From Eledone cirrhosa (Eukaryota): a DNA stretch of 64,000 bases. The notes below the pieces were generated by a model. That model did no database searches and was not told the DNA's origin. It saw nothing but the letters and a program-made list of their open reading frames with translations. The translations under genes and the position numbers were made by a program. The stretch is taken from positions 126,418,001-126,482,000 of the forward strand of contig OZ024743.1 in NCBI GenBank assembly GCA_964016885.1, written 5' to 3'. Shown here in pieces: positions 50,621 to 54,400 of the stretch. Position 1 is the first letter of the stretch. Every line of letters begins with the position of its first letter.

Positions 50621-51530
50621 TTCGTTTCTGAATTTGTTTAGCAAGATTCTTTCTCTCAAATCGTGTGTTGAAACCAATATTGTTATATTAGCAAGACATA
50701 CCCGTTCCAAAGACCCTCATGTATAGATAAGAAATGTATAACCTGTAAAATAAGCCCCCATATTAACTGTAAAACTAGAAATGTAGTGTATAGCATAAGA
50801 TGTACTGAAGGACAATGTAGAAACAAAAATATAGTGTACATAGGTGAGACAGCTCGTAGTATAGGGGAACGAATAAATGAACACTGGCGAGACCTTCAAG
50901 ATAATAAAGAATCATCTGTGCTCTACCAACATGCTAAGATAGAACACAGGTGTAGATTAGAGAACATAGAAATAAAAATAGAATCCACACACAGAAAAGA
51001 TGCAATGTTTAGGCAAATTACAGAGACAGTAAGCATAAAAGAATTACAACCAAAATTAAATAGAAAATATGAGTGGAACAGCAACATCACAACCAAAACA
51101 CACACAGGACAAAATGAAAACACACACACACATAGAACAAACAACCAACCAACAATAAATAAATAAATAAATAAATAAACAAATAGATAAATGAACACAA
51201 ACACACACAGACACCCGGATGTGGCGCATGCGCAAACTGAGCACACAACACACACACAGAAACAAAATGGCGTAGGATAGAGGAAAGGAAAGGCACGGAA
51301 ACAAAGAGGGGAATCCCCGGTCACTGGGGAGGTCACAGAGTGTGTGACGAGGGGACTATGACTGTATATAGGCAACTATCTGGTTGTGGAACCAACCAAC
51401 CAACCAGAAATTTATAAGTTTGTAGATTTGTAAATTTATAAATTTATAAATATATAATAAATTGAAGTGAAAGCAACTGGTGCGTGTGTTTCTTATTAGC
51501 AACATGACCCTCCCAAAGTATAACAACATA
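50621..51530 (+). mobile_element. 5'-truncated PLE: inverted terminal-repeat piece, GIY-YIG endonuclease fragment, 3' terminal repeat
   Basis: YSIRCTEGQC...YIGETARSIGERINEH...RQITE...LNRKYEW; 50621-50690 matches 54079-54145; same family as 62840-63941. Confidence 0.88.
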
Positions 51531-52139
51531 TATATATACATATATACATATATATATATATATATATATATATATATATATATATACATATATATATATA
51601 TGTATATATATATACATATATATATATATATATATATATACATATATATATATATATATTATATATATATATATATATATATATATATATATATATATAT
51701 TTATATATACATATAAAGGTTATCATATACATAAAATTAAAGATATATATATGTTGCAACTGTTCACTTTTAAGATCTTGATTTTGTATATGGTTAATTA
51801 TGCTAATTAGAAGAAGAAATAGTATATATTTTAATATCTGATGATTCTAAAGACATGATTTATGATATATATATACATATATATATATATATATATATAT
51901 ATATATATATATATACATATACATATATATATATATATATATATATACACGTTTGAATATGTATAATAAAGCCAAAACAATGCAGGTATGGACATAGAAA
52001 AAAGAATGCAATTGCAAAAGATATTGTTGACAAATCGTCTTTTACCTTATTTAAATGTCCTTAATTTTCGAGATAATATCTCTCCTTCAGAGGGAAATAA
52101 AGGTCTCAAACCAGCCTTCTAAATATCTTGCCAAGCCAT

Positions 52140-54079
52140 GCATATATATATATGTATATATATATATATATACATATATATATATACATATATATATATA
52201 TATATATATACATATATATATATATACATATATATATATATACATATATATATATATATATATATATATATATATATATATATATATATATATATATATA
52301 TATATATATATATACATATATATATATATATATATATATATATATATATATATATATATATATATATATATATATATATATATATGTACATATATATACG
52401 TATATATATATACACACATATATATATATACATATATATACATATATATATATATACATATATATACATATATATATATACATATATATATATACATATA
52501 TATATATACATATATATATATATATACATATATATATACATATATATACATATATATATACATATATATATATATACACATATATATATATATATATATA
52601 TACATATATATATATATATACATATATATATATATATACATATATATATATATATACATATATATATATACATATATATATATATATATACATATATATA
52701 TACATATATATACATATATATATACATATATATATATATATATATATATATATATATATATATATATATATATATTTACATATATATATATACACACATA
52801 TATATATATATATATATATATATATATATACATATATATATATATATACATACATATATATATATATATACATACATGTATATATATATATATATATATA
52901 TATATATACATACATATATATATATACATACATACATGTATATATATATATATATATATACATATATATATACGTATATATATATATACGTATATATATA
53001 TATATATATATATATATATATACGTATATATATATATATATATATACGTATATATATATATATATATATATATATATAATATATATATATATATACATAC
53101 GTATATATATATATATATATATATACGTATATATATATATATATACGTATATATATATATATATATATATCCGTATATTTATATATGTATATATATATAT
53201 ATATATATATATACGTATATATATATATATATATATATATATATATATATATATATATATATATATATATATATATATATATATATATATACGTATATAT
53301 ATACATATATATATATATATATATATATATATATATATATATATATATATATATATATATATATATATACGTATATATATATATATATATATATATATAT
53401 ACATATATATATACATATATAAATATACGGATATATATATATATATATATACGTATATATATATATATATATATATATATATATACATATATAAATATAC
53501 GGATATATATATATATATATATACGTATATATATATATATATACGTATATATATATATATATATATACGTATGTATATATATATATATATATACATATAT
53601 ATATTTATATATATATATATATATATATATACGTATATATTTATATATATATATATATACGTATATATATATATATATATATATATATACGTATATATAT
53701 ATATATATACGTATATATATATTATATATATACGTATATATATATATATATATATACATATATATATATATATATATATACATACATATATATATATATA
53801 TATTTACGTATATACATATATATATATACATATATATATATATATATATATATACATATATATATATATATATATATATATATATATATATATATATACA
53901 TTTACGTATATACATATATATACATACATATATATATATATATATATACATTTACGTATATACATATATATATATACATATATATATATATATATACATA
54001 CATACATATATATATATATATATATATATATATATATATATATATATATATATATATATATATATATATATATATATAT
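52140..54079. repeat. ~1.9-kb degenerate (TA)n array with TACA and TACG variants
   Basis: Direct reading; further long arrays at about 49385-49670, 49990-50340, 57495-57960, 58780-59152 and 60728-61415. Confidence 0.98.
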
Positions 54080-54400
54080 CGTTTCTGAATTTTTATAGCA
54101 AGATTCTTTATCTGAAATCGTGTGTTGAAACCGATATTGTTATACTTTGGGAGGGTCATGTTGCCAATAAGAAACACACGCACCAGTTGCTTTCACTTCA
54201 ATTTATTATATATTTATAAATTTACAAATTTACAAATTTACAAACTTATAAATTTCTGGTTGGTTGGTTGGTTCCACAACCAGATAGTTGTTTATATATA
54301 TAGTCATAGTCCTTTCGTCACACACTCTGTGACCTCTTCAGTGACTGGGGATTCCTTCCTTCGTTTCTGTGCCTTTCCTTTCTTCTATCCTACGCCATTT
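54079..54400 (-). mobile_element. Solo PLE terminal repeat, inverted relative to 51265-51530
   Basis: About 260-bp alignment to 51265-51526; ends in a 26-bp foldback (54372-54425). Confidence 0.9.
54302..54346 (-). ncRNA. Minimal type-I hammerhead ribozyme
   Basis: AGTCA-CTGAAGA-G-GTCAC AGAGTGT GTGAC-GAAA-GGAC-TA-TGACT. Confidence 0.85.

What the first reader, a model, noticed from the sequence alone, without database searches (positions are those of the whole stretch)
51265..54400. Possible ADAR-edited retroelement RNA fixed in the genome, with the hammerhead core destroyed
Seen: 51265-51526 (+) and 54137-54400 (-) are the same PLE terminal repeat. By-eye alignment gives 17 substitutions plus one 2-nt TA indel, and all 17 are A/G on the element sense strand. 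Thirteen are G in the left copy (51282, 51297, 51308, 51309, 51319, 51327, 51328, 51351, 51352, 51364, 51371, 51372, 51425) and four are G in the right copy. There are no C/T changes or transversions. The ribozyme sets the direction: intact CTGAAGA and GAAA (right) read CTGGGGA and GAGG (left), so the change is A-to-G. Most changed As have a 5' A, U or C. Established: ADAR A-to-I editing reads as A-to-G, clusters in dsRNA, disfavours a 5' G and is extensive in coleoids; CpG decay would hit both strands. Inference: a PLE transcript was hyper-edited, lost self-cleavage and was still reverse-transcribed and inserted. This suggests an ADAR-ribozyme-retroelement interaction in the germline.
Basis: partly seen in the sequence, partly recalled or inferred. 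Interest (0 to 1): 0.9.

Follow-up and report, generated by a model that had tools for sequence, protein, structure and literature searches.

The report
RNA-edited Penelope retrotransposon copies in genome
A jumping-gene copy here carries 12 A-to-G changes on one strand, and about two dozen other copies in this genome carry up to 160, a footprint likely left when the RNA-editing enzyme ADAR rewrote the element's RNA before it was copied back into inherited DNA.

Summary
The 17 A/G differences are real, but only 12, all in the left copy (51282-51372), are edits; the other five are family variants or a G-to-A change. The two repeats are separate insertions of a Penelope-like element with about 25,000 copies. 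The left copy is not a one-off: 25 independent insertions carry 9 or more sense-strand A-to-G changes. Twenty scored insertions give 480 A>G against 10 T>C, and one has 162 A>G in 1.16 kb. G is depleted 5' of edited sites, as for ADAR. Two hairpin insertions show A>G on both arms of one strand. Best reading: ADAR hyper-edited double-stranded element RNA, which was reverse-transcribed into inherited DNA (0.88). Inverted arms, and once a tandem pair, share the same edits, so one RNA was likely copied more than once per insertion. The hammerhead loss looks incidental: 14,761 copies inserted with an intact core. Raw reads and RNA were not examined. This scan noted similar ADAR-type copies before on other DNA (an L1 and a LINE hairpin); nine literature searches found no report for Penelope-like elements.

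The parts
50623..50687 (-). Inverted short arm of the left insertion: the element's 3' 'tail' (repeat columns 255-319), abutting a TA microsatellite
   Evidence: 3' ends of family copies fall at column 265 or 319 (48 and 54 of 113)
50686..51166 (+). 5'-truncated end of the Penelope-like ORF with the GIY-YIG endonuclease; not edited
   Evidence: Pfam GIY-YIG E 2.4e-4, 21.8 bits, just under the 22.6 cut-off; 0 A>G in 542 scored upstream bases
51167..51264 (+). AC-rich 3' untranslated region of the left insertion
51265..51529 (+). Left pseudo-LTR (columns 1-265), the edited copy
51282..51372 (+). Edited tract: 12 A>G at 51282, 51297, 51308, 51309, 51319, 51327, 51328, 51351, 51352, 51364, 51371, 51372
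51319..51363 (+). Minimal type I hammerhead with core positions A6 (51327), N7 (51328), A14 (51351) and A15.1 (51352) changed to G; predicted inactive (numbering recalled)
   Evidence: sequence; descriptor in PMC4209133; no Rfam match for the intact copy; activity untested
51530..54079 (.). Mostly (TA)n microsatellite between the two separate insertions
54080..54400 (-). Right pseudo-LTR with tail (columns 1-319): a separate insertion, not hyper-edited
   Evidence: 3 A>G against column majority, two of them shared variants
54302..54346 (-). Intact minimal hammerhead motif of the right copy
   Evidence: sequence; the 33-nt core word has 14,761 exact matches genome-wide
54400..54428 (+). Short inverted arm of the right insertion (head-to-head palindrome)

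Best explanation
The left repeat is the end of a Penelope-like retrotransposon insertion with 12 A-to-G changes on its sense strand, likely made by ADAR on the element's double-stranded RNA before that RNA was reverse-transcribed into inherited DNA. Shown: it is one of at least 25 independent insertions with clustered, private, strand-specific A>G changes and an ADAR-like neighbour pattern. Inferred steps: (1) a source copy was transcribed and paired with an antisense copy of the repeat, most likely an inverted arm in the same transcript, since such arms are common in this family; (2) ADAR deaminated about 10-50% of As in the duplex; (3) the element's reverse transcriptase read inosine as G and inserted the copy at a (TA)n site in a germline or early embryonic cell; (4) where an insertion has two or three repeat arms they carry the same edits, so the same RNA molecule was likely copied more than once, from the two start points at columns 265 and 319. 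The hammerhead core is hit as collateral, and cleavage is probably not needed for insertion.
For: Spectrum: 480 A>G, 23 G>A, 10 T>C, 8 C>T in 20 insertions, one arm each; 274 A>G against 6 other changes in ORF tracts of 3 insertions, where no search pattern forced any letter; 162 A>G and 0 T>C in 1.16 kb at L222. Neighbours: edit rate after 5' A 0.45, U 0.41, C 0.34, G 0.21 (Fisher p 3e-9, forced columns left out); in the ORF tracts 0.50, 0.47, 0.19, 0.13 (p 7e-10), with 3' G highest at 0.53; upstream-G depletion is the ADAR signature (PMC5625713). Genome-wide counts: forced AA>GG 11 against forced TT>CC 0 on a word with 17,626 copies; forced double at the GAAA 23 against about 0.6 expected from single rates. 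Patterns are private: overlap between unrelated insertions at most 0.5, between arms of one insertion 0.92-1.0. Hairpin insertions L213 and L221 have A>G in the sense arm and T>C (11 and 26) in the antisense arm, that is A>G on one strand. In L217 and L229 neither arm contains the other, yet 24 of 26 and 7 of 9 edits are shared, so the changes preceded copying. 41 of the first 100 anchor matches have an opposite-strand partner within 5 kb. The genome holds adenosine-deaminase (PF02137) genes at 4 places.
Against: No raw DNA reads or RNA reads were examined; the run search was uninformative (best share 0.59, while 136 of 241 words occur in other fetched copies anyway). For the left copy alone the neighbour bias is not significant (1 of 12 after G, 11 of 29 otherwise; p 0.07). 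Its source locus and duplex partner were not found. In the two antisense arms the 5'G depletion is not seen (3 of 7), on very few sites. In L221 the sense arm is edited only near its start, which a simple hairpin does not explain. Most hyper-edited copies were pulled with A>G-forcing patterns, so counts of A>G against T>C copies among fetched loci are biased. The bulk single-change asymmetry is mild (93 per A against 72 per T): most copies are unedited.
Confidence: 0.88

Rival explanations
1. The reverse transcriptase itself made runs of A>G errors (dC opposite A), for example under a skewed dNTP pool.
For: Would also give sense-strand A>G fixed at insertion; a mild family-wide A>G over T>C excess exists (ratio 1.3).
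Against: Independent copying would give different errors, yet arms that do not contain one another share 24 of 26 and 7 of 9 changes (L217, L229). Changes stop sharply within one cDNA (0 in 542 upstream bases of the left insertion). The 5'G depletion with 3'G preference matches ADAR.
Confidence: 0.04
2. A DNA-level process (an adenine deaminase on single-stranded DNA or on the DNA of an RNA:DNA hybrid, or polymerase-eta-like synthesis) changed the copy during or after insertion.
For: 5' A/T preference resembles the recalled polymerase-eta WA motif; DNA-level duplication or gene conversion could make arms alike.
Against: Deamination of first-strand cDNA would read T>C on the sense strand, which is rare (10 against 480). 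A>T plus A>C are 26 against 480 A>G, and 1 against 274 in ORF tracts, too few for polymerase eta (recalled). Not TpA-specific and not on both strands, unlike the TA-erasing pattern of note e1-9889545.
Confidence: 0.04
3. Sequencing or assembly error in purine-rich sequence.
For: The first 150 columns are 66% A+G; systematic substitution clusters exist in trace data (G-to-A; PMC2873906); reads were not examined.
Against: Edited copies lie on both assembly strands; inverted arms on opposite strands carry the same 23-35 changes yet differ at 2-5 random sites (L217, L218, L220); thousands of copies of the same sequence are called without error.
Confidence: 0.02
4. One reading: ADAR targets the hammerhead, and loss of self-cleavage lets the RNA be inserted.
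For: The core is changed in the left copy and in all 3 hyper-edited arms checked that were not picked by a core pattern; an old subfamily shares a GG core (28 of 39 hits).
Against: With about 0.3-0.4 of As edited, five core As would nearly always include a hit; edit density is no higher at the core; 14,761 copies have an intact core; core mutants insert normally in vitro in the anole element (PMC11167929).
Confidence: 0.07
5. Ordinary divergence: the left copy belongs to a G-rich subfamily, or the other copies are G>A derived.
For: Five of the 17 differences are of this kind; forced-double patterns do pull subfamilies (28 of 39; 5 identical hits in the LINE control).
Against: The closest other copy to the left tract is 93% identical and shares 2 of its Gs; every hyper-edited insertion has its own pattern across several subfamilies.
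Confidence: 0.01

Closest known systems
ADAR A-to-G hypermutation fixed in retroviral proviral DNA (RAV-1, Felder et al. 1994; avian leukosis virus, Hajjar and Linial 1995; seen only as cited in a passage of PMC8586724)
   Same: RNA edited by ADAR and then reverse-transcribed, leaving clustered A>G in DNA.
   Different: Those are exogenous viruses in infected cells; here a non-viral retrotransposon, inherited, with dozens of independent events in one genome.
APOBEC 'DNA editing' of retroelements fixed in vertebrate genomes (Knisbacher and Levanon, PMC4866542, passages; Zaranek et al., PMC2873906, passages)
   Same: Rare, heavily and strand-specifically hypermutated retroelement copies preserved in the germline.
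   Different: That is G>A from cytidine deamination of cDNA in LTR elements and was reported absent from 19 invertebrate genomes; here it is A>G, RNA-stage, with an ADAR context, in a Penelope-like element. Their filters selected G-to-A and not A-to-G.
ADAR hyper-editing of repeat transcripts, strongest in octopus (Porath et al., PMC5625713, passages; Carmi et al., PMC3197674, passages)
   Same: Clustered A>G with upstream-G depletion; G follows 22% of edited repeat sites here (91 of 410), within the 20-25% given for the octopus group.
   Different: Those edits are seen in RNA against an unedited genome; here they stand in the genome.
Penelope-like elements with minimal hammerheads, tail and inverted pseudo-LTRs (PMC4209133 part 1 of 4; PMC8557442 passages; PMC11167929 parts 1-2 of 4)
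   Same: RT plus C-terminal GIY-YIG ORF, pseudo-LTRs in tandem and inverted, tail at one end, minimal hammerhead, AT-rich targets.
   Different: No editing was mentioned in the parts read; the shared edits add single-molecule evidence on how the arms are made, which those papers leave open.

Membership tests
Penelope-like element (C-terminal endonuclease type) | One ORF with reverse transcriptase followed by a GIY-YIG endonuclease | tested here: met
   Full-length copy L215: RVT_1 weak (E 0.02) and GIY-YIG at cut-off (E 1.2e-4) in one frame; 103 relatives at E<=1e-20 of 1718 candidates, one named GIY-YIG domain-containing; window ORF GIY-YIG
Penelope-like element (C-terminal endonuclease type) | Pseudo-LTRs in tandem and inverted arrangement, with a tail at one end | tested here: met
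   Direct repeats 4,062 nt apart in L215; inverted arms; 3' ends at column 265 or 319; the 54-nt tail is longer than the 30-40 bp of PMC8557442
Penelope-like element (C-terminal endonuclease type) | Clade placement (Neptune/Nematis type: CX2-5CxxC linker and CCHH motif) | tested here: inconclusive
   Both motifs are readable in the window ORF against PMC8557442 passages; no tree was built
Minimal type I hammerhead of Penelope-like elements | Conserved core, helix I of 4-5 bp, helix II, unpaired base before helix II, short palindromic helix III | tested here: met
   Right copy by eye against the descriptor in PMC4209133; helix II (6 bp here, 7-8 in the paper) is the only stable predicted stem; Rfam gave no match
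Minimal type I hammerhead of Penelope-like elements | Self-cleavage of the intact form and loss of it in the edited form | not testable with these tools
   Needs an assay; 5' ends of anchor-picked copies show no pile-up at the predicted cut (1 of 113 at column 95)
ADAR hyper-editing footprint | Clustered A>G only, on one strand | tested here: met
ADAR hyper-editing footprint | Depletion of G 5' of edited A | tested here: met
   p 3e-9 and 7e-10 pooled; left copy alone p 0.07; antisense arms show no depletion on 7 sites
ADAR hyper-editing footprint | Long double-stranded RNA substrate | tested here: inconclusive
   Hairpin insertions edited on both arms (L213, L221) and 41 of 100 anchors with an inverted partner; the left copy's own source duplex was not identified
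ADAR hyper-editing footprint | Edits present in RNA from unedited loci; dependence on ADAR | not tested
   No RNA holder was listed; deaminase-domain genes are present
APOBEC DNA editing of retroelements | Sense-strand G>A clusters | tested here: not met
   0 of 215 arms with 9 or more G>A or C>T

The most novel reading that the evidence does not exclude
Penelope-like retrotransposition writes ADAR edits into the germline of this animal as a recurring route of inherited mutation, and the edits act as single-molecule barcodes showing that inverted and tandem pseudo-LTRs arise by copying one RNA several times: twin priming at two fixed start points, and in L254 a circular or re-entered template that gave three repeats with the same edits.
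Probability: 0.55. Interest if true: 0.88.

Novelty: new variant of a known kind. Interest (0 to 1): 0.78.

Why it matters
RNA editing is normally not inherited. These copies would be a fossil record of ADAR acting on transposon RNA in the germline of an invertebrate, a group reported to lack deaminase-edited retroelements when only G>A in LTR elements was sought (PMC4866542). They show that heavily edited RNA can still be mobilised, though edits thin out towards the 3' end where reverse transcription starts (0.02 per A in columns 241-270). Because each edited RNA is unique, shared edits between arms make a standing question directly testable: how Penelope-like elements build their inverted and tandem repeats.

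Tried and rejected
Run search: no RNA holder listed; best share 0.59 cannot tell edited from unedited words; no reads were laid, so support from raw reads stays open. Rfam found no hammerhead, only microRNA look-alikes on TA repeats and the palindrome. Monomer folds of both ribozyme regions are no better than shuffles (z -0.32 and -0.96). The repeat finder was swamped by TA repeats. LINE control: 0 forced AA>GG and 5 forced TT>CC among 4,132 base matches; the 5 share one word and carry mixed changes, so they look like a subfamily; one site and low power, so specificity to Penelope-like elements is not shown. The forced T>C double in the ribozyme region gave 1 hit, not hyper-edited, against 5 for the matched A>G double, 3 of them hyper-edited. 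28 of 39 hits with the GG core are of an old subfamily type; the 10 inspected have mixed changes and were left out of the edited set. The idea that the left and right copies form one element or edited each other was rejected: each has its own inverted arm. Literature searches found no report of ADAR-edited Penelope-like copies (0 papers with Penelope, hammerhead and ADAR); the library lacks most subscription papers, and supplements were not read.

Full report
1. Observation. Against column majorities of 81 similar copies, 12 left-copy Gs between 51282 and 51372 are derived. 51425 is the majority allele, 51498 is G>A in the left copy, and the right copy's Gs are mostly shared variants. Twelve A>G among 107 As has binomial p 1.2e-8 at the background rate. 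No other copy shares the pattern: the nearest is 93% identical, and three forced patterns each return the window copy without look-alike daughters.

2. Anatomy. The genome is 3.0 Gb. The best named protein relative is from Octopus bimaculoides (55% identity over 64%), which fits an octopod but does not identify the species. The family is a Penelope-like element: a full unit of 4,062 nt between direct repeats with RT and GIY-YIG domains; an A-free 18-mer has 24,662 exact matches. The left insertion is an inverted tail (50623-50687), a truncated endonuclease end and a pseudo-LTR ending at column 265. The right insertion is a pseudo-LTR with tail plus a 27-nt inverted arm. They are separate insertions in a TA microsatellite. 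Copies end at column 265 or 319 (48 and 54 of 113), the tail signature tied to two reverse-transcription start sites in PMC11167929 (parts 1-2 of 4 read). The right copy fits the minimal hammerhead descriptor of PMC4209133 (part 1 of 4 read) by eye; Rfam has no match.

3. Family survey. An alignment of 56 anchor-picked copies showed an inverted pair with about 30 identical A>G changes. I then counted exact words genome-wide. A 21-mer has 17,626 copies; forcing AA>GG gives 11 (9 in hyper-edited arms) and forcing TT>CC gives 0. The intact 33-nt ribozyme word has 14,761 copies; allowing any A>G adds 1,025 (93 per A) and any T>C adds 430 (72 per T), so bulk asymmetry is mild and heavy editing is rare. 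Forced doubles elsewhere gave 39 (11 hyper-edited arms, 28 of an old subfamily type), 23 (21 with 9 or more A>G), 13 (11 hyper-edited) and 5 (3 hyper-edited); the matched T>C double gave 1, not hyper-edited. Over 215 distinct arms of at least 150 nt, 33 arms in 25 insertions have 9 or more A>G, 2 arms have 9 or more T>C, and none has 9 or more G>A or C>T. L236 is a further case. This set is enriched by the patterns used. A rough capture-recapture on 26 insertions (20 caught once, 2 twice) gives about 90-130 in the genome; 4 of the first 100 anchor matches lie in such arms. So roughly 0.5-4% of copies.

4. Signature. In 20 insertions, one arm each: 480 A>G, 23 G>A, 10 T>C, 8 C>T, 43 transversions. 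With forced columns left out, the edit rate by 5' neighbour is A 0.45, U 0.41, C 0.34, G 0.21 (p 3e-9) and by 3' neighbour G 0.44, U 0.40, C 0.39, A 0.31. In ORF tracts of three insertions, untouched by any pattern: 274 A>G against 6 other changes; 5' A 0.50, U 0.47, C 0.19, G 0.13 (p 7e-10); 3' G 0.53. Upstream-G depletion is the shared ADAR preference across animals, and octopus has among the strongest hyper-editing signals (PMC5625713, passages). L222 has 162 A>G and no T>C in 1.16 kb. The left copy alone follows the trend without significance (p 0.07). Edit density falls from 0.30-0.40 in columns 1-90 to 0.02 in columns 241-270. This may reflect selection for an intact protein-binding and start region, by analogy with PMC11167929; that is inference.

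5. RNA stage and duplex. In L213 and L221 an antisense arm carries 11 and 26 T>C and adjoins a sense arm with A>G, so both arms read A>G on one strand, as expected of a fold-back RNA. Against this, the L221 sense arm is edited only near its start, and the antisense arms show no 5'G depletion on 7 sites. Inverted partners are common: 41 of 100 anchor matches have one within 5 kb. In nine other multi-arm insertions the arms share their edits (for example 29 of 29, 23 of 23, 35 of 35 and 37). In L217 (columns 50-319 and -229-265) and L229 neither arm contains the other, so fold-back copying of one cDNA cannot give both. The simplest reading is two primings on one edited RNA; early gene conversion is not excluded. 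In L254 both repeats of a full unit and the inverted arm share 11-12 edits. Arms differ at a few random sites (5 of 194 in L217, 17 of 175 in L229), so these insertions have been inherited for many generations. Deaminase-domain genes are present at 4 places.

6. The ribozyme. The left core is changed at A6, N7, A14 and A15.1 (numbering recalled) and is predicted inactive; not assayed. There is no sign of targeting: density at the core equals that upstream, 14,761 copies inserted with an intact core word, 5' ends do not pile up at the predicted cut (1 of 113 at column 95), and core mutants of the anole element insert normally in vitro. A ribozyme held in a long duplex could not fold in any case (inference).

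7. Rivals. Reverse-transcriptase error fails on shared edits between non-nested arms and on sharp tract limits. Assembly error fails on identical changes in arms on opposite strands, but raw reads were not examined and the run search could not decide. A LINE control gave 0 AA>GG and 5 TT>CC of one shared word among 4,132: too weak to show specificity, and a reminder that forced doubles can pull subfamilies.

8. Known and new. It works like ADAR hypermutation of avian retroviral RNA fixed in proviral DNA (seen only as cited in PMC8586724) and parallels APOBEC-edited retroelements in vertebrate germlines (PMC4866542, passages), whose membership test it fails (no G>A clusters). One passage on an endogenous mouse retrovirus considered ADAR and found the context did not fit (PMC12548423). 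Other papers seen as passages only: PMC2873906, PMC3197674, PMC8557442, bioRxiv 10.64898/2026.07.22.740005. Nine searches found no report of inherited ADAR-edited Penelope-like copies; the library is incomplete and no supplements were read. This scan's notes hold two similar, unchecked cases in other genomes (e1-8045164, e1-7810917) and none for this genome.

9. Verdict. Real and family-wide. ADAR-edited RNA written back by retrotransposition: 0.88. New variant of a known kind; interest 0.78, raised by the use of edits as barcodes for the insertion mechanism.

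Noticed in passing
L254:1769-7842 (G000:C3:328.617-328.623 Mb): A full-length unit with repeats 4 kb apart plus an inverted arm: all three repeats share 11-12 A>G changes, including a changed ribozyme core. 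Suggests one RNA copied three times (circular or re-entered template); single case, DNA-level conversion not excluded.
   Followed up: partly
L255:1529-7886 (G000:C1:2.084-2.090 Mb): Full-length unit whose 3' repeat is unedited while the 5' repeat and the inverted arm share 29 of 29 edits: fits a linear RNA primed at two different repeats.
   Followed up: partly
L211:368-1188 and L212:966-3631 (G000:C2:324.75-324.76 Mb): Two arms 10 kb apart, tail to tail, both ending at column 265, with the same edit counts (12 upstream, 21 in the repeat): possibly one insertion event with a rearrangement.
   Followed up: no
L221:2380-5209: A hairpin insertion (antisense arm 26 T>C, sense arm edited only near its start) lies 1.2 kb from another heavily edited copy (46 A>G); whether they are one event is unknown.
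   Followed up: partly
L124-L151, L207-L210: An old subfamily type with a shared GG in the ribozyme core (28 of 39 hits): either a founder with a changed core that still spread, or old divergence.
   Followed up: partly
window 51265-51275: The repeat start resembles a YY1/initiator site (recalled motif); 5' ends of copies cluster near column 1 (17 of 113 within -14..4) and near -800 (15 of 113 within -787..-869).
   Followed up: no
window 62652-63938 (+): A 429-codon open frame whose end is 72% alike to the left insertion's endonuclease region: a second, diverged Penelope-like family; no Pfam match at E<=0.01.
   Followed up: no
window 42477-44168 (-), 61507-62640 (-), 14288-14995 (-), 18221-18655 (+): LINE-type reverse transcriptase frames (RVT_1); no host gene exon among the 30 longest of 155 frames scanned.
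   Followed up: partly
family alignment: Younger and older subfamilies differ by G against A at several repeat columns (34, 46, 76, 90); could include edits that entered a master lineage, direction untested.
   Followed up: no
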